A stretch of DNA of 64,000 nucleotides from Eledone cirrhosa (lineage: Eukaryota): the NCBI GenBank assembly GCA_964016885.1, contig OZ024742.1:239258001-239322000 (forward strand), written 5' to 3'. The notes beneath the pieces were generated by a model that was not told the origin of the DNA, ran no database searches, and was given only the letters and a program-made list of their open reading frames with translations. Position 1 is the stretch's first letter, and each line of letters starts with the position of its first letter. Both the position numbers and the translations under genes were made by a program. Positions 3,170-61,510 of the stretch are shown piece by piece.

Positions 3170-3575
3170 GATATGAAATCGTGTGTTGAAATAAATATTG
3201 TTATATTTGGGGAGGGTTATATTGTTATAATATTACCAGATAATAATAAAACACACTCACTGTTTGGTTTGGATTGGTTTTCACTTCTGTATCAACAGGA
3301 GGAAACATAATAATACCACTGATGATGTCACAGATGTGTGATGAAATAACTTTGATAGATTATGTATATATATATTATATATATGTGTGTATTTATATCT
3401 GTATTTTTAACCATTGGTCAATCAATGATAAACATTGATTGCCAGATAAATCAACTATGGAGATATAAAAGATACAGAAGCAAAAACCAATCCAAACCAA
3501 ACGGTGAGTGTGTTTTATTATTATTTCTGGCAATATTATATAACAATATGACCCTCCCCAAAACAACACACACAT
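3170..3575 (+). mobile_element. Penelope pseudo-LTR with 5' inverted segment and decayed hammerhead core (3319-3346)
   Basis: About 3205-3282 is inverted relative to about 3483-3561. Same family as 53640-53900. Core CTGATGA-T-GTCACA-gatg-TGTGAT-GAAA with a mismatched helix I. Confidence 0.7.
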
Positions 3576-3635
3576 ATAAATAAAAACAAGAAGTGTAAGT
3601 CAACAGGTTAAAATTAACCTTGTTTATTCATATTT

Positions 3636-3694
3636 GCTGTTATATATATTTCGGTGACAATCATTATTCAACAGCTATGTCCTCATCAGACAGC
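3636..3694 (-). ncRNA. Type I hammerhead ribozyme motif
   Basis: Minus strand reads GCTGT CTGATGA GG-ACA...TGT-CA-CC GAAA TATATA TA| ACAGC: 5-bp helix I, intact core, palindromic helix III. Confidence 0.75.
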
Positions 3695-4324
3695 TAGAAC
3701 TTGAACAGAGTAAACAGTAAAACATAATGATGGAATAAAGTTTACCTCTGTAATTTCCATCTTTTGATATACCCAGTGCCGAAGTATGGTGTTTTTTCTC
3801 AAAGTACTGGTGGCATATGATTTAGAATGAATGAATTCAAGCATCAGTAAAATTTACCTGCCTCTCATTAGTCAGATTCAATCTCACCATTCCAATACCA
3901 AGTCTATTGAATTTCTTGGGTTAGTTGTCCTGGAATCAGGTCAGTTGGTTAGGGTTGTTTTTAGCAGTCAACTATAATTACTGTATATACCTAGAATATA
4001 GGTGTGCTTTGGCGTCAGTGACCTAGCTGTATTAGTGGCAGTAGTGTTAATATGCTCCTACCACTCCTCATGTTGTGAGGAGTGGTAGTATTGGAGTTGT
4101 TAGTGAAAAACAGATATGGGTTCATTTGGGAATGTGTATGCTTATCAATATTAAGAGTCCTGATAATAAAAGGTATTAAGATTATAATTGTAGGTTAAAA
4201 TTATAATCCATATCGTAAACATATAATACTCACCTGCACACACAAATCTACATACATATATTCATACACAGACACATATACATACACATACACACACACA
4301 CACATACGTATATACATACACACA

Positions 4325-4660
4325 TCATCATCATCATTTTTACATCCGCTTTTCCCTGCTTGCAAGGGTGGGATGGGAACTGATTCTGGCTTGATTTCTA
4401 CAGCTGGAAGCCCTTCCTAACACCAACCTCATTTACAGTGAGTGCTGGGTGCTTTTTTGCCGTGGCACCTCCACGACCACTTTGCAGTGGAATGATAGGG
4501 ACCCCAGTCCTATCATCTCATTTCTACAGCTGAATAAACTGGAGCAATGTGAAATAAAGTGTCTTGCTCAAGGAAACAACACATCACCCGGTCTGAGAAT
4601 TGAACTCACAACCTTTCGATTGCAAGGCCAATGCTCTAACCACTAAGCCATGTGCCGCCA
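4325..4660 (-). mobile_element. tRNA-headed SINE with RTE-like 3' tail ending in (ATG)n
   Basis: Nearly identical in reverse complement to 56381-56707 and 60053-60425. A/B boxes tggcttagtgg and gagttcaattc. The tail shares ggtgttaggaagggcatccagc with the RTE 3' UTRs. Confidence 0.85.
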
Positions 4661-5273
4661 TCAAGTATATATATATCTATTGGCTTTTATGTGCGAAAGG
4701 AAATAGGTTAGAGGTAGTTTGTTCTTAAGAAAACCGGATTATAGACCGAGGGTAGATGGTTAAACCCAGTGAGCAGAAATGTGGGGTGTATGTAGATTCC
4801 CAGGGTAGGACTCAGCCAACATATTATCTTGCTAAATAGCTAATGGTTAGATACTTGGATTAGAACTAAGGAAATGAGAAAGAAGGGAAATCCATGGCGA
4901 GGTAAGGCGTGGGCCCAGCCGCTAAGTAAGTGTGGCTATAATTAAAAATAGGGCTGTGTAGTTACCAGTAAATAATATTTGAAAAAAAAAAAACACTTAG
5001 GTGAAAACACGGAAGAGACAAACACAAGAACATAGACAGTTATCCTCTGCTGCTTCAGCTGGAACCTGCTAGATGGTGCTGGCTGTCTGCCTTTCGATTC
5101 ATAGTCGGACTTTCAAAATGTTTATTTACTAAACATACTGTATCGCTTTGGATATACAAAATTCACATACACGTATGTCTACAACTATGCCGAAGCTAAA
5201 TGTTTATATATATGCAAGCAGGGAAAAGCGGACGTAAAATAATGATGATGATGATATATATATATATATATAT

Positions 5274-6001
5274 ATATATCATAAAACATGTCTATAGAAT
5301 CACCAGATAAAATATATACCGTTTCCTCTCCCAATTAGCATAATTAACCATATAAAAAATCGATTAGACCAAGCTATAAGAATAAAGGCTTCTATGAAGA
5401 AATCTCCGACAAATAACCGAAAGCAGCTCTTCGTGGCGGTTGCGGCGGAGTATTTATTGAGTATTTCAACAGCGTGTATAAATCGACCAGATATACAGTC
5501 AACTAAACAGAAGTAGGTGTAAAATAAACTAGGAGAAAAGTGAACATATTTAGTTACCTCTACCATGGTTTCGTCCGCATTTTAAGATATCCGATAACAT
5601 TGGACATCTGGAGCACCGGACTCTTCAGGAGTTAGCTCAAATTTAGACAATTAATTTTCCAAAGTGATTGCGCCAAGAATACATTAAAAAATGGCTAAGA
5701 ATTGTGACGTAGCAGCGGTCAAGTTAGAAAGAATGTGATTAGTTGCTTACGGCTGGAGGCCTTTTGCTAGAAAGCGCAGCCCAATACAGCCAAAATTGTA
5801 TCTCAACCTAACGGGAGATTATTACATATAAAGGTTTACATATATATATATATATATGTATTTGTCGGAGATTTCTTCATAGAAGCCTTTATTCTTATAG
5901 CTTGGTCTAATCGATTTTTTATATGGTTAATTATGCTAATTGGGAGAGGAAACGGTATATATTTTATCTGGTGATTCTATAGACATGTTTTATGATATAT
6001 A
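5274..6001. repeat. Inverted repeat, ~140-bp arms (5274-5415 / 5859-6001), Penelope pseudo-LTR type
   Basis: Arms are exact reverse complements, bounded by (TA)n, and enclose a hammerhead motif. Confidence 0.9.
5553..5636 (-). ncRNA. Type I hammerhead ribozyme motif
   Basis: Minus strand reads TAACTC CTGAAGA GTCCG...CGGAC GAAA CCATGG TA| GAGGTA: intact core, 5-bp stem II base, palindromic helix III, GUA cleavage triplet. Confidence 0.8.
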
Positions 6002-6058
6002 GCTCTGATTATATAATTTATTAAATCTTCATTGAGCCACAAAGTGACCCGTTGCAAA

Positions 6059-6120
<62 letters not shown>

Positions 6121-6199
6121 CTTTATATATATATATATAAAGTATTAAAAAAATAATGAATAAAACAATGAAACAGTTCCTTATATTAAACAAAAAAAG

Positions 6200-6352
6200 T
6201 TCATTATTTAACGATCGTTTCTAGGACATATATGTGTTAGAATTGGCATGCATATTCAACAGATCTATGTACAAAATTATACAAAATTATACAAACTATC
6301 AAATCTAATATACATACCAACACATACATATGCCGTCTTCAGAAATAATGAA
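6200..6352 (-). ncRNA. Type I hammerhead motif with long stem II (inverted copy)
   Basis: Exact reverse complement of 10381-10533. Confidence 0.7.
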
Positions 6353-6705
6353 ATATATTTATTGATAATAACAACAATTCAAAATTACAGGTCTGTTTGG
6401 GAACAGAGTTCAAATTGACCAATGAAATACACAAAAATATATCAAGAAAATACAGTTAGGTGTGTGTATATATGTAAGTAACTTCGTTCACAGATATGCA
6501 TAAAAATATATGTTCACATGCATACGCATGTCGAAAAAATGTATGTAAATACAAAAATTCAGGGCTAATATCTCTGTATGTTTATAATCTACAGATAAAA
6601 TACACATACGTATATAAACATATATACACATTCATATATACACACACATATACATACATTCACATACTCACGCGCATATACACATAAACATACACATACC
6701 CACGA

Positions 6706-6743
<38 letters not shown>

Positions 6744-6981
6744 GTATATATTATTATTATAACTACATGGATATTAAGGCACACACACAAAAACACTGCC
6801 ACATACATTTTTACATCCATATGCAGAAGATGGTGAAGGGGGTCAGTAATTACTGTGGGTGTCAGAGAACTGCCTATTTATAAATGTATCTATAAATTTA
6901 GAAATAAAAAGAAAGAAATTAAAAAAATAAACAAATAAAATATATACTCATACATAAAATACACACCGATATACATATATA

Positions 6982-7223
6982 CAACATCTCTAGCAGAAAA
7001 AATTAATAGTTATAGAAATAAGAATATAGAATATGATATGACCTGGAGTGTGCTCAAAAGAGCCACCCCTTATCAAAATAATAGAAATGAATGTAGATTA
7101 TGTTCCCAAGAACTATTTGAAATAATGAAATCTAAGGATATCCTATTAAATAAGCGACAGGAATTAATTATATCGTGTAATCATAAACTGAGAAAAACAT
7201 TTAAATATTATAAACCTAATTAA
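6982..7223 (+). pseudogene. Penelope GIY-YIG endonuclease C-terminal fragment
   Basis: TSLAEKINSYRNKNIEYDMTWSVLKRATPYQNNRNECRLCSQELFEIMKSKDILLNKRQELIISCNHKLRK carries the W.IL....Y...C.LC..E....LLNKR.E....C.H signature of PLE ORF ends. Confidence 0.8.
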
Positions 7224-8884: not shown

Positions 8885-9492
8885 CAGGTCACCAGTTGGT
8901 GCTACTGGTAACATGTATCCCAGTACAACCTGTCTCATGGTCGGGTCGTTGGCGACTAAACTGGCAACCCCACCAAGGTTTCTTGGTGAGGAGGGTGACT
9001 TTGGACATCCTGCAGGACTAAAAACAAAACCTGTCAAAGGGCAAGGGAGCTCTTAAGACTCAATAGCCATCCAAAATCACCGGGAGAGATGACCCCTTAG
9101 CCTTTGTCAAGGCAGAATTCTAGGAGAAGGAAAACTCTGATATAACACCTGCAACCCTGATGGTATCCAATGATGTTGACTTGTTCTTCTTTTTGGTAAA
9201 TATCATCTTGGTTAAGAGAGTGGGACTGGCTTTGTGCAGTGCCTTTGCTCACTATAAAAGCTTCACAGCACAGGCATTGCTTTATATCTGGAGATCTCTC
9301 TGCACTTGTCATCACATGGTACCATGGGCCCTGCACTATGTGTCAATAATGGTCACAAGTGTAGTCTTTGTACCAGAGTTTTCAAGTCGCTGGCTGGACT
9401 AAAAAGTCACATTCGTTCAGCGCATCGGTAGGGGTTCTCCTACATGGATATAAAGTAGTGGCCGTACTCGAAAACGAGTTGGCAGCCACCAT
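8885..9492 (+). mobile_element. Short bipartite non-autonomous RTE-derived element (5' UTR-like head + ORF end / 3' hairpin)
   Basis: Head has ggcgactaaactggcaacccc and ctaggagaaggaaaactctga, motifs I associate with RTE 5' UTRs. Related heads at 2880-3090 (-) and 47960-48070 (-). The 3' part encodes FKSLAGLKSHIR (C2H2-finger-like) and ends in a hairpin followed by (TA)n. Confidence 0.5.
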
Positions 9493-9990
9493 ATATATGT
9501 GTATGTATGTATATATGTATATGTATGTATGTGTGTATATGTATGTACATATATGTGTATATATATATATGTGTTGAGAATATATGTATATATATATGTG
9601 TGTGTATGCATGTGTGTCTATGTATTTATATATGTATGTGTATGTGTCTCTATGTATATGTGTATGTATGTATGCGTGTGTATATGTATGTATGTGTATG
9701 TGTATATATATATATATGTGTATATATATATGTGTATATATATAATATCGGTGTGTATTTTATGTATGAGTATATATTTTATTTGTTTATTTTTTTAATT
9801 TCTTTCTTTTTATTTCTAAATTTATAGATACATTTATAAATAGGCAGTTCTCTGACACCCACAGTAATTACTGACCCCCTTCACCATCTTCTGCATATGG
9901 ATGTAAAAATGTATGTGGCAGTGTTTTTGTGTGTGCCTTAATATCCATGTAGTTATAATAATAATATATACATATGTGTGTGTGTGTGTG

Positions 9991-10021
<31 letters not shown>

Positions 10022-10380
10022 ATATGTTCGTGGGTATGTGTATGTTTATGTGTATATGCGTGTGAGTATGTGAATGTATGTATATGTGTGTGTATATATG
10101 AATGTGTATATATGTTTATATACGTATGTGTATTTTATCTGTAGATTATAAACATACAGAGATATTAGCCCTGAATTTTTGTATTTACATACATTTTTTC
10201 GACATGCGTATGCATGTGAACATATATTTTTATGCATATCTGTGAACGAAGTTACTTACATATATACACACACCTAACTGTATTTTCTTGATATATTTTT
10301 GTGTATTTCATTGGTCAATTTGAACTCTGTTCCCAAACAGACCTGTAATTTTGAATTGTTGTTATTATCAATAAATATAT

Positions 10381-10533
10381 TTCATTATTTCTGAAGACGG
10401 CATATGTATGTGTTGGTATGTATATTAGATTTGATAGTTTGTATAATTTTGTATAATTTTGTACATAGATCTGTTGAATATGCATGCCAATTCTAACACA
10501 TATATGTCCTAGAAACGATCGTTAAATAATGAA
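10381..10533 (+). ncRNA. Type I hammerhead motif with long stem II
   Basis: TTCATTATTT CTGAAGA [114 nt; GG-CATAT..ATGTGTTGG pairs with CTAACACAT-ATATG-T-CC] GAAA CGATCG TT| AAATAATGAA. Perfect 10-bp helix I, palindromic helix III. Confidence 0.72.
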
Positions 10534-10833
10534 CTTTTTTTGTTTAATATAAGGAACTGTTTCATTGTTTTATTCATTATTTTTTTAATACTTTATCTTG
10601 ACTCTGTATTCCGTTTATCTTTCACCGAAAGTGATTTTTGAATGCATCTCTTCTTTCCATGATATCCGGATTACATTGAGTTCTTCATACGGATTGGACA
10701 CTACCGTAAACTCTTGGTAGATTTATCTACATATATATATATATATATATAGTTAAATCTTAGACAGGAACAAAAACAGAGAGGCAGTACAAATATTAGT
10801 TTATTAGGTTCACACTTTTGAGGGGGGGGGGGG

Positions 10834-10863
10834 CGTTTTGGGCATAAGCCCTTCATAAGGAGA
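10834..10863 (-). ncRNA. Dead minimal hammerhead remnant
   Basis: Minus strand reads CTTATGA-A-GGGC-TTAT-GCCC-AAAA-CG, the CTGATGA/GAAA core with two substitutions. Helices I and III are lost. Confidence 0.4.
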
Positions 10864-10901
10864 AAAGTGGGTAGGAAGAGAGTTCCGAGGGTGTGTGGGG
10901 G

Positions 10902-10938
<37 letters not shown>

Positions 10939-12383: not shown

Positions 12384-12698
12384 TTATTATTATTATTCAC
12401 GCCGAGGTTAACTTTGCCTTTCATCCTTACGGGGTCGATAAAATAAAGTACCAGTAATGTACTGGTTAATTGCTGGCCTTGTGCCTAAAGTAGAAACAAT
12501 TATTATTCACTCACGAATACATTTAGGTTTTAGGTCTCCACCACCATCATCATCATCTCCTCCTCCTTCAAATGTTAGTGGGAACAAGGTCTTTCCACTA
12601 TCTTTATCAATCAAAGGAGGCAATCTAGAATATATATTTGTATGGTATGTCTATTCTTATATCTACCCTGTTTATATACTACCAATAAAGATTCTAAC

Positions 12699-12830
12699 TT
12701 CATTGTTTCTGAAGAAGACGGTGTGATCGAACCTATATATTATGTCTGATGGTATACAGTTCTCTAACTGCTATTGATCAGTGAATATATCAATATGATC
12801 AACCCTCCGAAACGATCATAAAACAATGAA
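12699..12830 (+). ncRNA. Type I hammerhead motif with long stem II
   Basis: TTCATTGTTT CTGAAGA [about 93 nt, base GAcGGtgTGATC / GATCAaCCcTCC] GAAA CGATCA TA| AAACAATGAA. Perfect 10-bp helix I; helix III palindrome has one substitution. Confidence 0.7.
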
Positions 12831-15800
12831 ATGACTATGTAAAATGACTTACCATCATTATTATTATCGTTGTTAAACTAATATCTAATATATATATATA
12901 TGAGAGAGAGAATGATGATGATGATGCTTGCTTCCCATCACCTGAACACTCACCCCTAAAGTGAATTTCAATCTTGAAATTATGATGGAATTTTTTTCCC
13001 ACTGGAAAGAATATTTTTGGGCAGTGAGACTATTTGTATGTATGTATGCTCTTCATGTAGAACGCTCCTCTTAGACATTTTCATCTTACACTCTATGGAT
13101 ACACATAATCAGCACATTGTTGCTTTCTGTTTGTCATCTTACATCTGATTTCTCTTATACATAGATTTTCTCTCAGCTCATTTCTTCCCAGCAAAGTGTG
13201 TCCAGCCTTTGCACAGCCTCTTGATTTAGTGCCCATGTTTCACTACTGTACAACACAAAGCATCTTGTACACAATCATCATACAATCACCCCATGAGGAA
13301 ATTTGTTGCCAGCAGATATAAGTTTTCTGGACCTTTTCCAACCTGTTCTTTCTCTGGCTGCTATGATTCTGAAACACATATTTCCATGTTTACCACTTTC
13401 CCTCCCGGTTACACAAATTGCACATGCATAACCTCCATCCACTTAACTACAACTCACACTTTCTTTTCTGAAGAACTATTTGTTCACCCATTGTCCCACT
13501 TTACAAACCTTTTAGCTGTAAAACCTAATTCTTTCTCCACATTTGTTTGCCATTCATTCCACATTATGTCACATTGACCAAAATTGATTATTTTGCAGAG
13601 TCTTTTCTCTTCTTTTCTTCTGTTTCCCTTGAGGACCATTGTCCAAAATATAGAATATGTCAATTTTTTTTCCTTTAAGCATTAAACAAATATAACTACA
13701 TACTCTTGTTCATTTTTTGGTGTTAGTTTTGTTGTTTCTGATACTTTTCACTGGAATGTTTACCATGCTGATGCAGTCTTAGACCCTATAATCCTCAGAT
13801 TACTCTATTTGGATTACACTGGATCTATGATTATATTTTACCACGCTAAATTTCTATACCCTTCTGCATAATTTTATCAGTGTGCCTGACCTCAAACTTT
13901 TTCTCTGTGATCTGTACCTTCACCTCAAACAATTTTTTTATCCTATTCCCCCCTGGCTGTTTTCACGTTTCTTTACATTTCTCCAAACTTTTACTAGGAC
14001 TCATTTCTTCAGCCATTACTCTCTTTTTTAACTATAGTCTCCACTATAATTTAATCCTACTTGGTTTCTGCTTGAAATTCAATCTCAGTAACTACTGCCA
14101 TTGAGCCCATTATCACCTACTATTCCTGTCTCCTCAGTCATGCCACCATCCACTTTATCTATTCCAAAATCTATACCTTGGACTGTAGCATTCCTCAGTC
14201 TCGTTTCCTCCCCTCTACCTGCATCACTCTCAAAACCCTCTGCTACCCACATCCATATCTAGGATGTCAACTGTACCTTCATCCTTGTACTCTGTGTCTA
14301 GCCCCCTGAGTTTGTATCCTGAATGTTGAAAAACGAGCTAAAGTTCCTTACAAATCAAAGGTTACACTTAAGAAGTAAAAGTGAAAAATCACAGAAGTAT
14401 ATGTAAAGATTATCTTTTACTTTAATCCAACATAATGAATAATTTTATAATTGTTACTTGAATTGGATTTCAGTTTTGTCAAATATTATTGGTTTTGATT
14501 GGTATATTAATCTTATCAAATATTAAATAATGAATATCAAAAAAAGTTTTTCCATATATTCTGTGAGCAGTTTGAACGTGAATTTTCTGTCAAAAATTTT
14601 TCTTATATACAGGGTGCGGCATAAATACTGTTACAAAATAAAATGCTTGTAACTCCTTAAATATTTATTGTATCTAGTTACAAAGTAATTAATAAACGTA
14701 ATTAATAAAATGTTTATGAAGGCAATACACACAAACATGAATGCTCGCACACACGTACACACATAGTTTAACATTTTTTTTTGCTGATTTTAGTCAGTTG
14801 GTTGTGATCATGTTAGGGCACTCACTACCTTGGAGGGTAAAGTTGATCATATTGACTCCATAATGATCATCATCCACTTTCTCTGCTCGCATAGGTTGGA
14901 CACATTGCTATGGTCTGTGACTAGACAGGCCAGAAGGGATGATATCTTGCTCCTACATTTCATATTTGACATGGTTTCTATGGTTGGATGTCCTTCCTAA
15001 CACCGCCCACTTTACAGAGTGTACTAAGTGCATTTTATCATGGCACTAGCACTACTACTTTACAGAGTGTGCTGGATGTATTTTATGTCACTGACAACAA
15101 AACATTACAGAGTGTACTGGTTTCATTTAATTATGTTAGTATCACTAGAGAGATTGTCATATGCTTGGCCAGCTTGAAGAGCCTTCTCTACCTTATATTG
15201 TCTCTGATTGCCTATTTCTTTACATATTTTACTGGGTGCATTTTATTATGGCACCAACACTAGAGAAGTTTCCAGGTACTTGACAGTTACAGAGGGTTCT
15301 CTCTACGTTACATTATCTCAGTCTGTTCAGTCACCACTTTACAGGGCTGGGTGGGTACTGAGTGATTTCCATTGTAGTACTGCCACTAGGGAGGCAGATA
15401 TACAAAACAAATGTGGAAACTAAATAAAAAGTAAGATCATTGTAGTAATTGAACTCACATCTTCGCTGATTCCTCAGTATACTTACTACTGTACCATAAA
15501 CCCTCGAACAAACATCAGCCTTTACATTGAAACTTTTGTACACAAGTCACTGAAGGAGCCTCTTATTTTTCCTGAACAGGTCTTTATATTGTTTCATTTA
15601 ATCTAGTGTGTTAGATCTAAGAATGTTCAGAGGCCGTGTGTCAGATCTATGGATATTCAGAAGTAATATGTTAGATCTATGGATGTTCTGAGGGGTTTAA
15701 TTGTATAGCACTGAAGAATATCTGAGCTTCATGTCACTAGTAAGTCAGGCTGTAGTATTGTGCAGTCTGATGTGGGATAAAACTGAGTTACTTCTAAACC

Positions 15801-39060: not shown

Positions 39061-39061
39061 C

Positions 39062-44810: not shown

Positions 44811-44890
44811 AAATCTTTACATTTTTTACATCTTTTTCCCATATTTTTTACTCGTATGGGATATAAAAAAACAACTTACTTTCCTATATA

Positions 44891-46843: not shown

Positions 46844-46872
46844 TATAAATTACTTTCTGCTTAAACTTCTAG

Positions 46873-50410: not shown

Positions 50411-50456
<46 letters not shown>

Positions 50457-50798: not shown

Positions 50799-50800
<2 letters not shown>
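50132..50800 (-). mobile_element. Two RTE 3'-UTR-only insertions (50132-50381, 50455-50800)
   Basis: Each starts with (CAT)n-cgtttaacgtcc. 50455-50790 is almost identical to 50870-51205. Confidence 0.9.
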
Positions 50801-50869
<69 letters not shown>

Positions 50870-50873
<4 letters not shown>

Positions 50874-52970
50874 TCATCATCATCATCAACGTTTAACGTC
50901 CGTGTTCCACGCTTGCATGGGTTTGGACGGGGGTAGTCCCACTTGAGGCAAGAGTGATTGTCTTGCTCGCATAGGACTGTCTGGCAGGTTTTCTACAGTT
51001 GGATGCCCTTCCTAACACCAACCACATTTACAGTGTGGGTCTGGGAGGTTTTTACCGTGTTGCCTACACGGCCACATTACAGCGTGGACTGTGTGTTTTT
51101 TTGTCGTGACACCTACACGATCTCATTTGTTTCGGCCTGGATGGCGCGGCACCAACATAACTTTACATAGGACGGGGTGGTGTGGATGGGTGGGGGTGGT
51201 GGCGGGACGGGGTGTATTTTGTTAGAGATGCCTACTGGCAAGGCGGGTCTTCTCTGTTACTGAGTACCGCCAAAGGTCTCGGTCCAGTGACATTGTCTTG
51301 GAGAGGTGTAAGTGTGTGAGGTCGGAGTTTATCAGCTCGTCCCAGGTTTTTCTAGGTCTGCCTATTCCGTGGCTACCGTCTATCTTTATTGCCCTGCACT
51401 TTGTTATACAGCTATCGACTTTCATGCGCATCACGTGTCCATACCAACGTAGCCTTCTCTCGAGTAAACAACATCTGATCCCTCTTATCTCTAATTTTTT
51501 CCTTAGTTCGTTTATGCTTTGCCGTTCACGTATATTACTGTTACACATCCAGCGGAGCATGCAAGCTTCGTTCCTCTCTAGTCTGCGTATATCCTCTGCA
51601 CACAATGCCCAGGTCTCACTGCCATGCAACATTGCTGTTCGTATGCAGGCATCGTACAACCTGCCTTTCATTTTTAGGGAGAACCCTTTAGCAGCTAATA
51701 GTGGTATAAGCTCTCTGAACTTTTTCCAACCAGTTCTGACTCTAGCTACAGTACTTTCAGAGCACCCTCCCCCACTGCTGATTTTATCGCCCAGGTAACG
51801 GAAGCTGTCCACTATTTCTATAGAACCCTCTGCGCAATTGAAAGGGCTAGTATTTTGTGGGCACTTGCTGCTACTTATTGCACCAGAACACCGGCCACAT
51901 GTAAAATCTATGTTCTTAGTTAGCTTACCTGTGATCCCACTACATCTTTTATGCACCCATACTTTGCATTTAGGACATAAAATGGAGTTTCTACCTACGC
52001 CTTTCCTACACACCGAGCACGACCATTTCCCAGAAGGGACCGCCGCCTTGTTTTCTTTCCTACAAACTAGAACTTTGGTCTTAGCCAGGTTAATTTTAAG
52101 TCCTTTTGACTCTAGGCCGTGCTTCCATGTTTGGAATTTCTTCTCTAGCTCGACCATTGATTCCGCTATGAGTGTCAGGTCGTCTGCGTATAGGAGTTCC
52201 CATGGGCAGCCTGTCTTGAACTCCTCTGTTATAGCCTGAAGGGCAATAATAAATAGTAGGGGGCTGAGAACAGAGCCCTGATGGACGCCAACTTTTACGC
52301 TAAACTCTTCACTATATTCGTTGTTAATTCTAACCTTGCTGACTGTTTCTTTATACATGGCTTGTATAGCCCTCACAAGCCATTCGTCAACCCCTAGTTT
52401 TCTAAGAGCCCACCAGATAATGGAGCGGGGGACTCTGTCGAAGGCTTTCTCCAAGTCGACAAAAGCTAAGTAGAGGGGTTTACCTTTAGCTAGGAACTTC
52501 TCCTGTAGTTGTCGTACTATGAAAAGAGCGTCTGTGGTACTTTTGCCTGACACAAACCCGAACTGCATTTCATCTAGGTCAATTCTCTCTCTGATTAGTT
52601 GCGCTATTACTTTTTCCGTGACCTTCATGACCTGGTCGATTAATTTAATGCCTCTATAGTTACTCCTATCTAGGGCATCTCCTTTACCCTTATAACAGTT
52701 AACGATGATGCTGCTATGCCAGTCCTTCGGAACAACCCCATTCTGTACGACTTGGTTAACTATGCGGGTGACCATGGTGTGTCCCACCGTGCCAGATGCC
52801 TTCAGCATCTCAGCAACTATTTCCGAAGGCCCAGCCGCCTTACCTGTCTTCATATCCTTGATTGCCTTACTTATTATACTCCCCTCGACTAACACTGCTG
52901 GTCCCTCTATTGGGTCGACATGGGGGAGACTGTCTTTCTCCCATTTATTCTCCTCATTTAGTAGCCTTTC
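50870..52970 (-). mobile_element. Young 5'-truncated RTE LINE, longest open RT ORF (52970-51222)
   Basis: Frame is open from ERLLNEENKWEKD through YADD to the stop at 51222. Inserted in (TA)n; no APE domain. Confidence 0.95.
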
Positions 52971-53146
52971 ATATATATATTATATATATATATATTATAT
53001 ATATATATATTATATATATATATATTATATATATATATATTATATATATATATATATTATATATATATATATATATTATATATATATATATATATTATAT
53101 ATATATATATATTATATATATATATATATTATATATATATATATAT

Positions 53147-53207
<61 letters not shown>

Positions 53208-53209
<2 letters not shown>

Positions 53210-53546
53210 CATCATCATCATCATCATCATCACCGTTTTACGTCCGTTCTTCCACGCTAGCATGGGTTAGACGGGTTGTCCTGTTGTGGGCAGTGTCTGG
53301 TCGGCTGACCATGCCTTGCTCATACAGGAACTGATCTGGCTTGATTTCTACAGCTGGATGCCCTTCCTAACACCAACCTCATTTACAGTGAGTGCTGGGT
53401 GCTTTTTCGTGGCGCCTACACGTCCACTTTACAGTGTGGGCTGGGTGCTTTTTTGCCGTGGCACCTCCACGACCACCTTGCGGTAGGGGGGGGGGGGCAT
53501 ATTGTTTATATGCTTCAGCATGTACTCATGGGAGGTCGGGTACCCT

Positions 53547-53548
<2 letters not shown>
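53208..53548 (-). mobile_element. RTE second-subfamily 3' UTR
   Basis: Reverse complement of about 42790-43121, with a (CAT)n tail. Confidence 0.85.
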
Positions 53549-53582
<34 letters not shown>

Positions 53583-53835
53583 GTATATATATGTATATAT
53601 ATGTATATATATATATATATTTCGTTTCTGAATTTGTTTAGCAAGATTCTTTATCTGAAATCGTGTGTTGAAACCGATATTGTTATACTTTGGGAGGGTC
53701 ATGTTGCCAATAAGAAACACACGCACCAGTTGCTTTCACTTCAATTTAATTTATTAAATATTTATAAATTTACAAATTTATAAATTTCTGGTTGGTTGGT
53801 TGGTTCCACAACCAGATAGTTGTTTATATATATAT

Positions 53836-53880
53836 AGTCATAGTTCTTTCGTCACACACTCTGTGACCTCTTCAGTGACT
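53836..53880 (-). ncRNA. Minimal type I hammerhead ribozyme in the Penelope pLTR
   Basis: Minus strand reads AGTCA CTGAAGA-G GTCACA-gagtg-TGTGAC GAAA G-aa-C TA| TGACT: perfect helices I and II, minimal helix III, on the element's sense strand. Confidence 0.85.
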
Positions 53881-54185
53881 GGGGATTTCTTTCTTCGTTT
53901 CTGTGCCTTTCCTTTCTTCTATCCTACGCCATTTTGTTTGTGTGTGGGTTGCGTGCTCAGTTTGCGCATGCGCCACATCCGGGTGTCTGTGTGTGTTTGT
54001 GTTCATTTTTCTATTTTTCTATTTATATTTTTCTATTTGTTTGTTTATTTATTTATTTATTGTTGGTTGGTTGTTTGTTCTATGTGTGTGTGTATTTTCA
54101 TTTTGTCTTGTGTGTGTTTTCATTTTGTGTGTGTTTTCAATTGTAAGTTGTTTGTTCTATGTGTGTGTGTGTTTTCATTTTGTCC

Positions 54186-55676
54186 TTAATTGTAAGTTGT
54201 GATGTTGCTGTTCCACTCATATTTTCTATTTAATTTTGGTTTTAATTCTTTTATGCTTACTGCCTCTGTAATTTGCCTAAACATTGCGTCTTTCTTGTGT
54301 GTGGATTCTATTTTTATTTCTATGCTCTCTAATTTACCCCTGTGTTCTATCTTAGCATGTTGGTAGAGCACAGATGATTCTTTACTATCTTGGAGGTCTC
54401 GCCAGTGTTCATTTATTCGTTCCCCTATACTACGAGCTGTCTCACCTATGTACACTACATTTTTGTTTCTACATTGTCCTTCAGTACATCTTATGCTATA
54501 TACTACATTTCTAGTTTTACAGTTAATATGGGGGCTTATTTTACAGGTTATACATTTCTTATCTATACATGAGGGTCTTTGGAACCGGTATGTCTTGCTA
54601 ATAAGTGTTTTTACGGAGGTACCAGGTCTTTCTACTATCTTAATATTGAGATTATGTTTCTTTAGGGCCCTTCTAAATTTGTAGGCTAGTTCGCCTCTAG
54701 GGGTTGTATTGATGAACATTACACTCTGGTATTTATTGCTATCATACCATGAGTTTATTCTATTGGCCTTGTTCTTAGTTCTTTCTATTCTATTCCAAAA
54801 TTTGCTCCTATACAAGGGGCAGGTCCCATTTATGTCATTATTTACCATTTTTTCCCATTTGGTTCTGGCTCCTTTATACACTCTGATTCTATCTCTCTGA
54901 TTGTAGCCAGAGAACTGCATACGGTGGATGAAGTGTTGTATGTGTCTCTCTAGTTCTTCGGGGTTGCACATGCGGGACACATTTCTCATCACCCGTACCA
55001 AATCCGCAATCAGTATGTTGATTTTGGTATGGTCCGAAATGGCCGAGTTTCGGTGGATCAGATGTTTGGAAGTCATGGGTTTGGCATAATGGGAATGGAG
55101 GATTTGTTTTTGGTTGTTAATAGTATCTAACCAGAGCTCTGTGTCTAGTACAGGTAATCGATGGTTGGGGTGTCTACTTGGGTAGTCTATAGTAACTCTA
55201 ATGCTCTGGTGGATGGAGTTTGCTATTTGCTGGATGCTTTCCATTGTGTTTTTCTCTAGTTCCTGACTGTTCTTTAGTGGGGGTGTCTTAACTACGATGT
55301 TTATATCATCTACGTAGCGGGAGTACATTATCAGGGTTAAGCTGTCTTCTAATTGTTCATTAAGTTTTTGTTTAAGTCTACTGTCCCACCATACCATGAA
55401 TAAGTTAGCTATGTCGCCTGCAATGCTAACACCAATGGCTGCTCCTTCCTCTTGGGCATATGTTTTACCATTAAATTTGAACATATGTTCCTTAAGGGTT
55501 AGTTTTATGCTGGCCCCTACCGCATGTGCAATCATTTTCTTCAGTTCATCGTGGTTTTCGGGTGTCCGTATGGCTCTGGTCCACCCGTTCCATCTATCTG
55601 TGTGGGTTTTCTTGGCCATTGAGGTAATGGTAGGTGGTCTGCCTCTTGCTGGTCTTGTAGGGCACAGGTTGCTAAG
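54186..55676 (-). CDS. Penelope-like RT + GIY-YIG endonuclease (open, N-terminally truncated)
   Basis: FKFNGKTYAQEEGAAIG, YSRYVDD, LPVLD, a Cys-rich linker (CIDKKCITC...C), NVVYSIRC...YIGETARSIGERINEH...EAVSIKELKPKLN. The ORF-track start at 55868 is microsatellite read-through. Confidence 0.92.
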   Translation of the reverse strand, partial: LSNLCPTRPARGRPPTITSMAKKTHTDRWNGWTRAIRTPENHDELKKMIAHAVGASIKLTLKEHMFKFNGKTYAQEEGAAIGVSIAGDIANLFMVWWDSRLKQKLNEQLEDSLTLIMYSRYVDDINIVVKTPPLKNSQELEKNTMESIQQIANSIHQSIRVTIDYPSRHPNHRLPVLDTELWLDTINNQKQILHSHYAKPMTSKHLIHRNSAISDHTKINILIADLVRVMRNVSRMCNPEELERHIQHFIHRMQFSGYNQRDRIRVYKGARTKWEKMVNNDINGTCPLYRSKFWNRIERTKNKANRINSWYDSNKYQSVMFINTTPRGELAYKFRRALKKHNLNIKIVERPGTSVKTLISKTYRFQRPSCIDKKCITCKISPHINCKTRNVVYSIRCTEGQCRNKNVVYIGETARSIGERINEHWRDLQDSKESSVLYQHAKIEHRGKLESIEIKIESTHKKDAMFRQITEAVSIKELKPKLNRKYEWNSNITTYN

Positions 55677-55869
55677 AACAATAGCAACATACCCAGATAC
55701 AACAACAACAATAGCAACATACCCAGATACAACAGACACGCAGACACAAACAACAATAACAACACACACGGAGACAATAATAACAACAACAACAATAGCA
55801 ACATACCCAGATACAACAACACACACACATATACACATATATATACACACACACACATACATACACATG

Positions 55870-56232
55870 CATCATCATCATCATCATCAGGTTTAGCGTC
55901 CGTGTTCCACGCTTGCATGGGTTTGGACGGGGGTTTTCCCACTAGAGGCAAGAGTGGTTGTCTTGCTCGCATAGGACTGTCTGGCGGGTTTTCTACAGTT
56001 GGATGCCCTTCCTAACACCAACCACATTTACAGTGTGGGGCTGGGAGGTTTTTACCGTGTTGCCTACACGGCCACATTACAGCGTGGACTGTCTGGCGGG
56101 TTTTCTACAGCTGGATGCCCTTCCTAACACCAACCACATTTACAGTGTGGGGCTGGGAGGTTTTTACCGTGTTGCCTACACGGCCACATTTACAGCGTGG
56201 ACTGTGTGTTTTTTCTCGTGACACCTACACGA
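55870..56232 (-). mobile_element. RTE 3' UTR with internal tandem duplication of about 113 bp
   Basis: ggactgtctggcgggttttctacag...ccacattacagcgt occurs twice, at about 55974 and 56086. Confidence 0.85.
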
Positions 56233-56380
56233 ATGCATATATATAAATATATATATACATATCTCTCCATATATATACATACATACACATACATACACAG
56301 ACATATACATAAATATACACATATATACCAACATATATACGCATATATACACACATATATATACATATAAATACACGTGG

Positions 56381-56707
56381 AGGCACATGGCTTAGTGGTT
56401 AGAGCATTGGCCTTGCAATCGAAAGGTTGTGAGTTCAATTCTCAGACCGGGTGATGTGTTGTTTCCTTGAGCAAGACACTTTATTTCACGTTGCTCCAGT
56501 TTACTCAGCTGTAGAAATGAGATGATAGGGACTGGGATCCCTATCATTCGTGGAGGTGCCACGGCAAAAAAGCACCCAGCACTCACTGTAAATGAGGTTG
56601 GTGTTAGGAAGGGCATCCAGCTGTAGAAATCAAGCCAGAACCAGTTCCCGTCCCACCCTTGCAAGCAGGGAAAAGTGGACGTAAAATGAAATGAAATGAT
56701 GAAATGA
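56381..56707 (+). mobile_element. tRNA-headed SINE with RTE-like tail
   Basis: ggaggcacatggcttagtggttagagc...gagttcaattc head and (ATGAA/ATG)n tail. Same family as 4325-4660 and 60053-60425. Confidence 0.88.
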
Positions 56708-56744
56708 CACGCATACACACACACACACACACACACATATATAC

Positions 56745-57158
56745 TCAGTAACAGAGAAGACCCGCCTTACCTAAATACATAGTAAAACCTACTACAGCCA
56801 GTAGGCATCTCTAACAAAATACACCCCGTCCCACCACCCCCACCCCATCCACACCACCCCGTTCTATGTAAAGTTATGTTGGTGCCGCGCCATCCAGGCC
56901 GAAACAAATGAGATCGTGTAGGTGTCACGACAAAAAAACACACAGTCCACGCTGTAATGTGACCGTGTAGGCAACACGGTAAAAACCTCCCAGACCCACA
57001 CTGTAAATGTGGTTGGTGTTAGGAAGGGCATCCAACTGTAGAAAACCTGCCAGACAGTCCTATGTGAGCAAGACAATCACTCTTGCCTCAAGTGGGAATA
57101 CCCCCGTCCAAACCCATGCAAGCGTGGAACACGGACGTTAAACGTTGATGATGATGAT
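56745..57158 (+). mobile_element. RTE 3' end
   Basis: Reverse complement of the 50870-51260 region, with an (ATG)n tail. Confidence 0.9.
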
Positions 57159-57178
57159 ATATATATTATTTATATATT

Positions 57179-57210
<32 letters not shown>

Positions 57211-57251
57211 ATTATATATATATATACATATATATATATTATTTATATAGA

Positions 57252-57289
<38 letters not shown>

Positions 57290-57305
57290 TATATATATAT
57301 ATATA

Positions 57306-57358
<53 letters not shown>

Positions 57359-57402
57359 ATACGATATTAAACAAATGGAAACTATATTTATAAAACCATA
57401 TT

Positions 57403-57468
57403 TATTTCATTATACATATTTCAGGGATACCATATTAAAAATATGGCATGCCTTCGTCAGATAAAATA
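57403..57468 (-). ncRNA. Type I hammerhead motif (inverted copy)
   Basis: Reverse complement of 58786-58851. Confidence 0.78.
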
Positions 57469-58785
57469 CAATATATAAACTGTTTTATAAATAATTTTGA
57501 CGTACCATAAATATAAGCGACCATTAAGATAGGAGGCTGGCTTGGTAGTGAAGTGTTTATAATTATTTAGTTATAGTGTTAAGCACAGTTAGAAAAAAAA
57601 AAGACGGAGAGAAAGAAGAAATGGATGTAAAGAAAAACAGAGAGAAATAGGGGAGAGAGAAAGAGAGAGGGAGTACTATATATAGAGAGAGTACAGTAAT
57701 TATTTAGTTATAGTGTTAAGCACAGTTAGAGAGAAGAGAGAAAGAAAAAATGGAGATAAAGAGAAAACAGAGAGAGAGAGGTGGGAGGAAAAGAAAGAGG
57801 GAGAGAAAATATAAATATATAGGGGTAGGTGAAAACCAAGAGAGAAATAATAGAGAAATATGAGAGTCAAAATCAAAGCGACAGATACATAAAACTTCAT
57901 CATATATAAAGAGAGAGGAGAAAGAGCTATATCTAGAGAGAGAGGATACAGTTACATCTTTACGTCATGTCATATCAATTTGAATTATCAATTCATATGA
58001 ACTGGGTAATAGAATGTAAATATCAATATTCATGAATAACAAAATACACCCCGTCCCACCACCACCACCCCCACCCGATCCACACCACCCCGTTCTATGT
58101 AAAGTTATGTTGGTGCCGCGCCATCGAGGCCGAAACAAATGAGATCGTGTAGGTGTCACGACAAAAAAACACACAGTCCACGCTGTAATGTGGCCGTGTA
58201 GGCAACACGGTAAAAACCTCCCAGACCCACACTGTAAATGTGGTTGGTGTTAGGAAGGGCATCCAACTGTAGAAAACCTGCCAGACAGTCCTATGCGAGC
58301 AAGACAATCACTCTTGCCTCAAGTGGGACTACCCCCGTCCAAACCCATGCAAGCATGGAACACGGACGTTAAACGTTGATGATGATGATGATGATGAGAC
58401 ATAGCTATATAATGTGAGAAAATAACTTTGCTCAGTAATGACCATATGTTTAGTTTAAAACTCTGAGGTCAATGTACCAAAATCTGAGATAAACCTTCAA
58501 AAAATTACCCTATTTATAAAAATACGGAGATATATATGTAAATATATATATACGTATATGTACTTTCTGAAAAAAAAGGAAAAGAGAAAGTTATGTCTAG
58601 CTCTAGTCGATAATATAGACATACACATGACTTTACGTGATCAACTCTATAATTTCTTGTCATAAAAAAAAAAAAAAATTCCATTGTGTTATAAAAGATT
58701 TCACCATATATATACATAAAAAATAAACGATTAATATTTATATTTATGGTACGTCAAAATTATTTATAAAACTGTTTATATATTG

Positions 58786-58851
58786 TATTTTATCTGACGA
58801 AGGCATGCCATATTTTTAATATGGTATCCCTGAAATATGTATAATGAAATA
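58786..58851 (+). ncRNA. Type I hammerhead ribozyme motif
   Basis: TATTTTAT CTGACGA AGG-c-ATGCCATATT-ttt-AATATGGTAT-c-CCT GAAA TATGTA TA| ATGAAATA. Confidence 0.8.
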
Positions 58852-58979
58852 AATATGGTTTTATAAATATAGTTTCCATTTGTTTAATATCGTATATCTA
58901 CTCCAAAAACTTGTCGAGTGCTTTATATCGGTTATAAAATATTTACTTGTTGTAACCCAACAATTTTAAATAACACTTT

Positions 58980-59062
<83 letters not shown>

Positions 59063-59141
59063 ATATTATATATATATTATATATATATATATATTATATA
59101 TATATATATTATATATATATATATATTATATATATATATAT

Positions 59142-59174
<33 letters not shown>

Positions 59175-60052
59175 CACACATACACACATATATATATATA
59201 TACACACACACATATATATATATATACACACATACTTCAATGAAAAAAGAAGGCTGGATTCCAATATATTCCTTTAATGTTGCATAAATATACAATACAT
59301 ATTTTTTATGTTTGGTGCCTTTTGTCTTCAGGTGTAATTAACATAGAACATTTAGTAATTGACTACTGGGTTACAGCAAAATATAAACAAAGAATTGGTA
59401 TGGAGGCAGTCTGTCAACCAATGCAATCACTGTGACAGACGCCCTTTGAATGCCACTCACTTGATTGTGGGTTTGTAGGCATGAACAGGGGTGAAGGGCA
59501 CTCGACAACAATACATTCATGCAGCGGGCTGATATTGGATGCTATCAATCACAGTTAGTTTGATGTCTTTAACAAGTTTTGGGGGCACCAAACGGGCTGC
59601 GATAACAGTGTTGGTCCCTGGCCAAAAACCAGTGTAGCGTGACAAGTAGGTTCAATATATGAAAATAGGGGAATTTCTTGAACGTTGAGTTCAATTTATT
59701 CCAAGCGCTCAAGGTAAAAATCAGATGCTGGCATCCGTTTGTGTGACCAAGAGGACGGCAGAGGAGTCAATCCATGATGTAACACGTACCAGATAATTTG
59801 AGTAAGTGATAGTAATGTTCATGACACACATATCACATATAGCGTCACCTCCTGCTAATAGCAGTATCAGTAACAATGCTACCTATTTCAACCATAAAAA
59901 AGAATATGAATCATAAAAGGTAAATAAAAACAATAAAAAATCCAAGTATTTATTCCAGTATTATACATTGTTCATGTATTAACTTTTCATGAATCCTAAC
60001 TATTGTATAATTATCCTTTTATGCTTTTTTTTTGAAAATTAATCTTTATGCA

Positions 60053-60425
60053 TTAATGGTTAGAGCATTGGGCTTGCAATTGAAAGGTTGTGAGTTCAAT
60101 TCTCAGACCGGGTGATGTGTTGTTTCCTTGAGCAAGACACTTTATTTCACATTGCTCCAGTTTACTCAGCTGTAAAAATGAGATGATAGGGGCTGGGGTC
60201 CATATCATTCCACTGCAAAGTTGTCGTAGAGGTGCCACGGCAAAAAAGCACCCAGCTCTCACTGTAACGTGGACGTGTTAAGCGCCATGGAAGAAAAGCA
60301 CCCAGCACTCACTGTAAATAAGGTTGGTGTTAGGAAAGGCATCCAGCTGTAGAAATCAAGCCAGAATCAGTTTCCGTCCCACCCTTGCAAGCAGGGAAAA
60401 GTGGACGTAAAATGATGATGATGAT
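60053..60425 (+). mobile_element. tRNA-headed SINE with RTE-like tail
   Basis: Same family as 56381-56707, with an (ATG)n tail. Confidence 0.88.
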
Positions 60426-60521
60426 TAATGGGTTTTTATACATGTTTCTTTTATGTGTTATATTTCTTTTGATTGATTCCTTACTTTTTGTTGAGAAAAG
60501 TATATTCCGTTTCCATTAAAG

Positions 60522-60661
60522 GTTCTGGGAGAGTACAATAAGTCTGTGATATGTTTTGAAAATACTTTAAAAATCCAGCCAGAATTTGAAGCAGCAGCAA
60601 AACTAAAACATGCCGTCCTCTGTCATGCAAAGCTTGAAAGTGCGTTAGAGGCTCAGCATAG
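60522..60661 (+). CDS. TTC17: TTC17-like exon G (TPR)
   Basis: ttccattaaag acceptor (AAG type), gtatgt donor. VLGEYNKSVICFENTLKIQPEFEAAAKLKHAVLCHAKLESALEAQH(R). Phase 0 in, phase 2 out. Confidence 0.9.
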
Positions 60662-61343
60662 GTATGTTTTGAATTCGATTCATCATTCAATTTATTTCAA
60701 CAGGTAGAATTGATCACTTATGTTTTTTCTTTGTTGTTTTTACAATTATACTTGTATTGTAGACAAATTATGTGTTTTTTAGAGCGCTACAGCAATGCAA
60801 ATAAATGTTAAAAGTAACAATAAAAAGATGTTAAAGCAGGATATCCTGTGTTGTTCAATATTCCTGCTCCGAATTAGTTTCCTCAATTCTTCTTTTCATG
60901 GAAGGATTTTATCCCAAATATTAAGGACTATTAAACAATTCCAAGGTAACATTTTAATATCTTTGTTATTATTTTTAACATATAATGTTCCATATATATT
61001 GTTATAGCCCATTAAAAAACACACTGTTTTCTTCTACACTTTGGGCTCTGCTTTTTCTGCCCTGACTAAAGCAATTAAAAAAATTATATACGGGTTAACC
61101 AATGCCTTGTGAGTGAAATTTAGTAGATGGAAACTACACAAGTTCATCGTATATCATTTTATGTTGCCTTCCATGCTGGCATTGGTTGGACAGGTCATTG
61201 TCAACCCGGTAACCCGTCCAACCCATATTATTGTGGAAAGTGGATGTAAAAAGATGATAATATATGATAGGCTTGTGCAGTTTGCATCTACCAAATTTCA
61301 CTCACAAGGTATTGTTCAACCTGTATATATTTACAAGCTTATC

Positions 61344-61510
61344 TATATAAGTTTATTTGTTCATTTTATTACAACATGATGTTTCAGTAAAGCAAGTTTT
61401 CACTAAGCCTTTTCAAAGAATTATTGCTTTTCTGAAGAGGCTTAGTGAACACTTGCTTTACTGAAACACGATAGCTATGTCATAAGAAAATTAATAAATA
61501 AACTTATATA
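61344..61510. repeat. Imperfect inverted repeat of two hammerhead-like half-sites
   Basis: tgtttcagtaaagcaagttttcactaagccttttcaaa / tctgaagaggcttagtgaacacttgctttactgaaaca, plus outer tatataagtttattt / aaataaacttatata. Confidence 0.8.

What the first reader, a model, noticed from the sequence alone, without database searches (positions are those of the whole stretch)
3319..61510. About ten intact-looking hammerhead motifs of seven sequence types concentrated in one gene locus
Seen: well-formed type I motifs at 3636(-), 5553(-), 6200(-), 10381(+), 12699(+), 38853(-), 41263(+), 53836(-), 57403(-) and 58786(+), plus decayed ones at 3319, 10834 and 61344-61510. Their helices are mostly unrelated in sequence yet all pair. 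Most have a palindromic helix III (TATATA, CCATGG, CGATCG, CAGAGCTCTG). Established: Penelope-like elements carry minimal type I hammerheads in their pseudo-LTRs, and palindromic helix III supports dimeric cleavage. Inference: at roughly one motif per 6 kb, this genome may hold a very large and diverse unannotated ribozyme population with effects on long-intron transcripts.
Basis: partly seen in the sequence, partly recalled or inferred. Interest (0 to 1): 0.75.

Follow-up and report, generated by a model that had tools for sequence, protein, structure and literature searches.

The report
Hammerhead ribozymes from Penelope-type jumping repeats
These are real hammerhead-shaped RNA motifs left in the introns of one gene by several families of jumping repeats; the gene holds no more of them than the rest of this animal genome, which by sampling likely carries on the order of a hundred thousand, and they likely serve the repeats' own copying rather than the gene.

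Summary
The motifs exist and far exceed chance: 6 pass a strict type I hammerhead descriptor, against 0.11 per shuffled window. Of the ten called intact, 6 pass, 3 have intact core words but an irregular helix II base, and 1 is damaged. Three pairs are mirror copies, giving 7 types. All lie in introns of TTC17 in a likely octopod genome. They are not concentrated here: 59 spaced 10-kb samples gave 33 motifs (1 per 18 kb, order 10^5 genome-wide); TTC17 has 13 in 241 kb. One motif ends a young Penelope-like element (RT plus GIY-YIG; 4,898 exact motif copies). Two more types match terminal repeats of such elements. Two types sit in 319- and 586-base retrozyme-like units. No effect on host transcripts showed: 19 sense versus 23 antisense in 936 kb of genes, and a post hoc hint did not replicate. 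Cleavage is untested. This is a known kind (Penelope hammerheads, non-LTR retrozymes); my searches found no paper reporting it in cephalopods. The scan noted the same population before on other DNA of this genome.

The parts
3293..3582 (+). Decayed terminal repeat (pLTR) of a Penelope-like element with a decayed hammerhead at 3319; relative of the 53836 family
   Evidence: Homologous stretch follows PLE RT/EN coding sequence on the same strand in L029, L046, L011 and L015
3634..3696 (-). Type I hammerhead motif, helix III TATATA, predicted cut after 3641; likely a pLTR remnant
   Evidence: Passes descriptor; homologue lies downstream of a PLE endonuclease in L046; active fold 12 kcal/mol above MFE
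5254..6001 (-). Non-coding retrozyme-like element, 586-base unit with terminal redundancy (5273-5415 = 5859-6001); hammerhead at 5555-5634, helix III CCATGG
   Evidence: (2,782 candidates, 40 scored, 95-98% identical)
6137..6983 (-). Left arm of an inverted repeat carrying the 6200 hammerhead-like motif
   Evidence: 602 of 604 bases identical to 9993-10596
9492..10596 (+). Element of at least 1.1 kb with hammerhead-like motif 10381-10531: 10-bp helix I, CGATCG, irregular helix II base
   Evidence: fold z = -4.0; fails the strict descriptor
10717..10902 (-). Repeat with a decayed hammerhead (two core changes) near 10834
   Evidence: 4 other copies in the loci held
12590..12901 (+). Short repeat with hammerhead-like motif 12699-12831; family core reads CCGAAGA in 9 of 14 other loci
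   Evidence: (1,119 candidates)
18228..63453 (+). Nine TTC17 coding exons (near 18228, 21924, 32945, 38319, 46873, 48260, 60522, 61869, 63325); every motif is intronic
38731..39060 (-). Copy of the 319-base retrozyme unit with a damaged hammerhead (38853)
41106..41514 (+). 319-base retrozyme (about 1.3 units) with an intact U3-A8 type I hammerhead at 41288-41332, long helix I, loop II CAAAAA, palindromic helix III, predicted cut after 41328
   Evidence: 152 exact pattern matches; z = -7.1; Rfam HH9 23.4 bits, E 0.00095, under the gathering score of 52
53548..54185 (-). 3' terminal repeat of a young Penelope-like element with hammerhead 53836-53880, predicted cut after 53841
   Evidence: 4,898 exact copies of the 43-base motif
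54186..55700 (-). 5'-truncated Penelope-like ORF: RT, C-x4-C-x2-C linker, GIY-YIG endonuclease
   Evidence: RVT_1 E 1.6e-4, below cut-off; GIY-YIG 25.1 bits over cut-off 22.6; sequence
57157..57516 (-). Short repeat with hammerhead 57401-57470; inverted partner of 58784
58738..59234 (+). Short repeat with hammerhead 58784-58853, helix III TATGTA; no PLE coding sequence found beside it
   Evidence: 27 copies in 17 loci
61344..61510 (.). Fold-back of two head-to-head decayed hammerheads
   Evidence: no other copy in the loci held
62560..62665 (+).
   Evidence: resemblance by eye to a 10-member family (it did not cluster with it)

Best explanation
The motifs are type I hammerhead sequences carried by at least seven repeat families inserted in TTC17 introns, one a Penelope-like element and the others likely Penelope remnants or Penelope-dependent retrozymes; they are predicted to cut the repeats' own tandem RNA as dimers and likely do little to the host transcript. 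Shown: the motifs, their families, copy numbers, the PLE ORF beside 53836, tandem units of 319 and 586 bases, inverted partner copies, and ordinary local density. Predicted by folding: helix III is unstable as a hairpin in 5 of 6 intact motifs; the 41263 monomer prefers an inactive fold by 3.5 kcal/mol, while in a natural tandem dimer the dimeric active fold is 13 kcal/mol better than two monomer folds. Inferred from the literature: cleavage releases unit-length RNA, which may circularise and is copied back by the PLE reverse transcriptase and endonuclease. In TTC17 pre-mRNA only + strand copies are read; both intact ones lack a tandem partner and have an inverted copy 1.4-2.5 kb upstream that would pair with them.
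For: Excess over shuffles. Features left out of a second descriptor also appear: 15.2-16.2 pair in 84% of 38 hits versus 30% shuffled, C11.1 in 45% versus 4%, perfect palindrome in 32% versus 7%. Homologous 319- and 311-base units swap U3-A8 for C3-G8 and change helices I, II and III while keeping pairing. PLE RT and GIY-YIG next to 53836; 3319 and 3636 homologues next to PLE coding sequence. Tandem and inverted partial copies. 319-nt circle folds at -76.4 versus -49.0 +/- 4.7 kcal/mol. Dimer energetics. No sense or genic depletion. Literature: PMC4209133, PMC7229834, PMC8557442, bioRxiv 10.64898/2026.07.22.740005.
Against: No cleavage or RNA data. No PLE coding sequence was found beside 58786, 10381 or 12699 copies with one PLE protein as query, in loci up to L140. 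Only 2 of the 30 top GIY-YIG loci had a descriptor-passing motif downstream; a looser look found a U3-A8 core with a short helix I in 12 of 30, all of one family. 53836, the most abundant motif counted, has no stable helix III as monomer or dimer (+5.6 and +1.4 kcal/mol). In the rows shown the 319-base unit matched the pLTRs of that family only in TA-rich sequence. Only 1 of 9 Xenopus retrozyme dimers cleaved in vitro, so many predicted motifs may be inactive.
Confidence: 0.85

Rival explanations
1. Sense-oriented intronic hammerheads cut host pre-mRNA and shape long-intron gene expression; unpaired sense copies are purged or co-opted.
For: Post hoc, motifs without an inverted partner were 2 sense to 9 antisense (p = 0.065). 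41263 has a hairpin-stable helix III (-1.8 kcal/mol) and an HH9-like loop II. Xenopus retrozymes are reported as less dense in introns.
Against: The test written down beforehand (note) gave 4:4 on new genes, pooled 6:13, p = 0.17. All motifs 19:23, p = 0.64. Genic density 1 per 22.3 kb versus 1 per 17.9 kb sampled, p = 0.35. The new set was only 200 kb and 7 of its 8 hits were weak, so a mild bias is not excluded.
Confidence: 0.1
2. Most genomic copies, and possibly whole families, are catalytically dead passengers; the motif is kept only because the element sequence is copied.
For: Irregular helix II in the 10381 and 12699 families and CCGAAGA in 9 of 14 loci; weak helix III in 53836; low in vitro activity of minimal PLE hammerheads (PMC4209133); 8 of 9 Xenopus dimers inactive.
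Against: Covariation across homologous families and 17 unrelated families keeping the same fold imply selection on the founder elements. This rival is compatible with the best explanation at the level of single copies.
Confidence: 0.3
3. The motifs are chance matches in AT-rich, microsatellite-rich DNA.
For: A loose descriptor gives about 1.4 hits per shuffled window; 3 of its 10 window hits are long-loop AT-rich matches and 1 is a mis-parse of the damaged 38853 copy.
Against: 6 versus 0.11; 21 versus 0 in five shuffles of the myosin spans; 4,898 exact copies versus 0 for the reversed pattern.
Confidence: 0.01

Closest known systems
Minimal type I hammerheads in pLTRs of metazoan Penelope-like elements (Cervera and de la Pena 2014, PMC4209133; parts 1-2 of 4 read)
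   Same: Type I topology, extra base between positions 9 and 10.1, short palindromic helix III, U3-A8 variant, many families per genome, mostly single motifs from truncated copies, pairs on opposite strands
   Different: Estimated number here is order 10^5, against about 2,000-9,000 per genome in that paper (different descriptors); some families have ~110-nt helix II inserts
Metazoan non-LTR retrozymes (PMC7229834, passages and section 14 read; bioRxiv 10.64898/2026.07.22.740005, parts 1-3 of 5 read)
   Same: Non-coding, low-GC tandem units with one type I hammerhead each; monomers, dimers and arrays; strongly self-paired predicted circle; co-occurrence with PLEs
   Different: The 319-base family has a U3-A8 core, a long helix I and a 12-nt palindromic helix III; the 586-base unit is longer than the 150-450 bases given in PMC7229834 but within the 51-972 of the preprint; circular RNA not shown here
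Neptune/Nematis EN+ Penelope-like elements (PMC8557442, passages read)
   Same: RT, CX2-5CxxC linker, C-terminal GIY-YIG, 5' truncation, inverted truncated copies, microsatellite neighbourhood
   Different: Clade not resolved between Neptune and Nematis; no tree built
Amniote intronic HH9 hammerhead (Rfam RF02275)
   Same: 41263 shares loop II CAAAAA and part of the helix I internal loop
   Different: 23.4 bits versus gathering 52; a young multicopy repeat, not a conserved single-copy intronic element

Membership tests
Type I hammerhead ribozyme | Core C3UGAN G8A (or U3-A8), GAAA and NUH in type I order with three helices | tested here: met
   6 of 10 motifs pass; 3 irregular at helix II; 1 damaged
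Type I hammerhead ribozyme | Covariation of helices and of the 3-8 pair among homologues | tested here: met
   319-base, L073 and 311-base units; tested for this clan only
Type I hammerhead ribozyme | Site-specific self-cleavage | not testable with these tools
   No RNA run listed; needs in vitro assay
Rfam hammerhead families (clan CL00010) | Gathering score reached | tested here: not met
   Best: HH9 23.4 of 52 bits; only 41263 and 38853 matched at E <= 10 in the window scan
EN+ Penelope-like element (53548-55700) | RT followed by C-terminal GIY-YIG endonuclease | tested here: met
   RVT_1 E 1.6e-4 under cut-off, GIY-YIG over cut-off
EN+ Penelope-like element (53548-55700) | Hammerhead in the terminal repeat; 5' truncation; inverted partial copies | tested here: met
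   Motif about 305 bases past the stop; variable 5' ends and inverted copies in L082, L089, L091
Neptune clade | CX2-5CxxC linker plus RT phylogeny | tested here: inconclusive
   Linker present; shared with Nematis; no tree built
Non-LTR retrozyme (41263, 5553 families) | Non-coding tandem unit of a few hundred bases with one type I hammerhead | tested here: met
   319-base period with head-to-tail dimers; 586-base terminal redundancy, no full dimer seen
Non-LTR retrozyme (41263, 5553 families) | Expressed as circular RNA | not testable with these tools
   No RNA holder listed
PLE pLTR (58786, 10381, 12699 families) | Adjacent PLE coding sequence in some copies | tested here: inconclusive
   None found with one query protein in loci up to L140; no blastn match to 30 GIY-YIG loci
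Type-SGC permuted hammerhead (PMC10085705) | Block order S, G, C | tested here: not met
   All listed motifs are in type I order; no SGC hit in the window, but the scanner found only background in 1.54 Mb and is probably insensitive; no window member in the candidate permuted clusters

The most novel reading that the evidence does not exclude
This cephalopod genome holds one of the densest hammerhead populations known (about 1 per 18 kb, 17 or more families), and introns tolerate it because dimer dependence and inverted partner copies switch the ribozymes off in pre-mRNA, while unpaired sense copies do cut host transcripts and are purged. The same inverted pairs would supply long double-stranded RNA in introns.
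Probability: 0.12. Interest if true: 0.65.

Novelty: new member of a known kind. Interest (0 to 1): 0.32.

Why it matters
If the estimate holds, a 3.0-Gb cephalopod genome carries about as many hammerheads as the 120,000 reported for the 28-Gb axolotl genome, so roughly ten times the density, from many families of different ages and with an apparently still-young Penelope-like element. That makes it a good system for testing how PLE hammerheads and retrozymes work and whether intronic ribozymes cost the host anything. The locus itself is ordinary for this genome, and the kinds of element are already described.

Tried and rejected
Rfam scan of the window: no family at its gathering score; the top rows are microsatellite matches to miRNA models. 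Sequencing runs: no RNA holder listed. The four listed runs, laid on 38200-48500, cover unique intron sequence like DNA; summed depth is not a copy number and was not used. DNA search with the 58786 motif returned nothing, not even the window itself, so it is uninformative. The solo/paired count misclassed two close inverted pairs; one search corrects it. The post hoc solo-sense deficit (2:9) did not replicate (4:4). A planned further 150 kb of kinesin intron was not obtained, so that test used 200 of 350 kb. 80 kb of an uncertain myosin span (1 antisense motif) was left out of the orientation counts. Insertion in (TA)n: 9 of 12 element ends lie within 30 bases of (TA)4 versus 8% of window positions, but the ends came from blastn with low-complexity masking, which favours this result, so I give it little weight. 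Similarity between the 319-base unit and the U3-A8 pLTRs: only TA-rich matches in the rows shown. Permuted hammerheads in the window: none found, with an insensitive scanner. The dynein search was not followed up. No supplements were read; those of PMC4209133 and PMC7229834 list more species, and the preprint's are closed, so a cephalopod entry there cannot be excluded.
Full report
Setting. The window is G000:C3:239258001-239322000 of a 3.0-Gb genome. Nine + strand exons match mollusc TTC17; most exon matches are 83-100% identical to Octopus proteins where alignments do not run into introns. Exon 1 lies 102 kb upstream and the last exon 75 kb downstream, so every motif is intronic in one 241-kb gene. 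The animal is likely an octopod (inference from those identities).

Observation. I wrote a type I descriptor (core CUGANGA or UUGANAA, optional extra base after A9, GAAA, NUH, helices I and II of at least 4 pairs). Its loose form gave 10 window hits against 1.40 +/- 1.11 in 60 block-wise dinucleotide shuffles. A stricter class, defined after seeing those hits, gave 6 against 0.11 (max 2) in 100 shuffles: 3634(-), 5555(-), 41288(+), 53836(-), 57401(-), 58784(+). Of the other four called intact, 6200/10381 and 12699 keep the core words and a 10-bp helix I but have an irregular helix II base and a ~110-nt insert, and 38853 is damaged. Three pairs are inverted copies, leaving seven types. A second descriptor without helix III gave 38 hits in 831 kb against 3.0 per shuffled pass, and real hits showed unrequested hammerhead traits: a 15.2-16.2 pair in 84% versus 30%, C11.1 in 45% versus 4%, perfect palindromes in 32% versus 7%. 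Rfam does not call them: best HH9 23.4 of 52 bits.

Is the locus special? 59 evenly spaced 10-kb stretches (589.6 kb; 40 from contigs C1-C5) held 33 strict motifs against 0.6 shuffled; bootstrap 17-54. That is 1 per 18 kb, or about 165,000 (83,000-270,000) in the genome. Two cautions. One stretch holds 8 of the 33, and the one family counted exactly (4,898 copies) predicts about 1 copy in the sample where 3 were seen, so the sample may run high. On the other side the descriptor misses families with a short helix I or a mismatch at the helix II base. Order 10^5 is the safe statement. A 64-kb draw reaches the window's 6 with P = 0.19, and the whole gene has 13 in 241 kb. 46 motifs fell into 17 families.

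What carries them. 53836 lies about 305 bases past the stop of a 5'-truncated ORF with RT and GIY-YIG domains and a C-x4-C-x2-C linker. All 40 scored copies round to 100% identity, and they show variable 5' truncation and inverted partial copies, as described for PLEs (PMC8557442, passages). The 3319 repeat follows PLE coding sequence in L029, L046, L011 and L015, and the 3636 repeat in L046. 41263/38853 belong to a non-coding 319-base unit found as monomers, head-to-tail dimers and inverted partial copies, with 152 exact pattern matches. It aligns with a 311-base tandem family in which U3-A8 becomes C3-G8 and all three helices change sequence yet pair. 5553 sits in a 586-base terminally redundant unit with 2,782 candidates. 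58786, 10381 and 12699 are multicopy short repeats with no PLE coding sequence found beside them. Against a simple 'every PLE has one' picture, only 2 of the 30 top GIY-YIG loci had a strict motif downstream; 12 of 30 had a U3-A8 core with a short helix I.

Mechanism. Helix III is unstable as a hairpin in 5 of the 6 intact motifs (+2.9 to +5.6 kcal/mol). Dimer duplexes are -20.1 for 41263, -11.2 for 5553, -2 to -3 for the TA-rich ones and +1.4 for 53836. The 41263 monomer prefers a fold that buries the core by 3.5 kcal/mol; in the natural tandem of L019 the dimeric active fold is -123.1 against -109.7 for two monomer folds and -125.7 for the MFE. The unit folds as a circle at -76.4 versus -49.0 +/- 4.7 in 50 shuffles. 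These are predictions. The step from cleavage to circle to PLE-driven reinsertion is the model proposed in PMC4209133 (parts 1-2 of 4), PMC7229834 (passages and section 14) and bioRxiv 10.64898/2026.07.22.740005 (parts 1-3 of 5). Those papers also report low activity of minimal motifs and cleavage by only 1 of 9 Xenopus dimers.

Host effect. I mapped gene spans with myosin and kinesin profiles and scanned 936 kb of gene body including TTC17. Strict motifs: 19 sense, 23 antisense (p = 0.64); density 1 per 22.3 kb versus 1 per 17.9 kb sampled (p = 0.35); homology-based count before the kinesin spans 32:43 (p = 0.25). Motifs without an inverted partner were 2:9 post hoc, so I noted a test; new genes gave 4:4, pooled 6:13, p = 0.17. 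The new set was 200 of 350 kb planned and 7 of its 8 hits were weak, so only a strong bias is excluded. In the window, both intact sense motifs have an inverted copy 1.4-2.5 kb upstream that would pair in pre-mRNA (-524 and -235 kcal/mol).

Known and new. Penelope hammerheads with palindromic helix III, the U3-A8 variant and thousands of single copies per genome are in PMC4209133; retrozymes in a mollusc (about 5,000) and axolotl (about 120,000) are in PMC7229834. Searches for hammerhead plus octopus, Penelope plus octopus, retrozyme, and self-cleaving ribozyme plus cephalopod (listings) showed no cephalopod hammerhead report. The 2026 Octopus vulgaris repeat annotation (PMC13282606, term search) lists recently active Penelope-like families and has no mention of ribozymes. 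PMC6765202 and PMC10085705 were seen as passages; Lunse et al. only as a reference there. No supplements were read. Earlier scan notes describe the same population and a permuted hammerhead family elsewhere in this genome; I found no window member of the latter. Hammerhead numbering and the role of loop I-loop II contacts are partly recalled.

Verdict. Real motifs, correctly tied to Penelope biology, in a locus that is ordinary for a genome unusually rich in them. New member of a known kind; interest 0.32.

Noticed in passing
window 12699-12831 and L112-L125: The family core reads CCGAAGA in 9 of 14 other loci, CTGAAGA in 4 and CCAAAGA in 1; the standard-looking core may have arisen by CpG decay of a variant founder.
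   Followed up: partly
L141-L168 (12 of 30 GIY-YIG loci), 420-670 bases past the endonuclease: One PLE family carries a U3-A8 core with a very short helix I and a stem-loop II resembling that of the 319-base retrozyme; no wider similarity seen.
   Followed up: partly
L026:5773(-), L056, L215, L216; L061:4978(-), L179, L182: Two repeat clusters with GAAA before CUGANGA, candidates for the permuted hammerhead noted by earlier scan reports; no member in this window.
   Followed up: partly
L040:1455-1463, L075:2319, L183:7934; window 62612: A 10-member fold-back family in which two hammerhead cores face outwards from a centre just upstream of CUGAUGA, so helix I is lost.
   Followed up: no
L071:1420-2384, L024:2705: A 482-base tandem family with a U-U mismatch at the helix II base, missed by the strict descriptor.
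   Followed up: no
L067:5951-7900 and L200:4815-6968: 311-base retrozyme arrays with arms on both strands; the L200 array lies in a myosin gene span.
   Followed up: partly
window 39447-42928, 51222-52979 and other copies: Many RT-encoding LINE-like fragments (likely RTE type, label recalled) with a PHD-like finger inside the protein (Pfam PHD over cut-off).
   Followed up: no
window 11704-12078 (-): Helicase fragment (Herpes_Helicase and UvrD_C_2 hits under cut-off), likely a Helitron remnant.
   Followed up: no
window 28398-28468: Perfect inverted repeat of about 70 bases without a loop.
   Followed up: no
G000:C3:239156067-239276225: TTC17 intron 1 is about 120 kb long.
   Followed up: yes
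window 6137-6740 and 9993-10596: Arms 602 of 604 identical although the nearest relative held is 91% identical; a recent insertion, gene conversion or an assembly effect was not told apart.
   Followed up: partly
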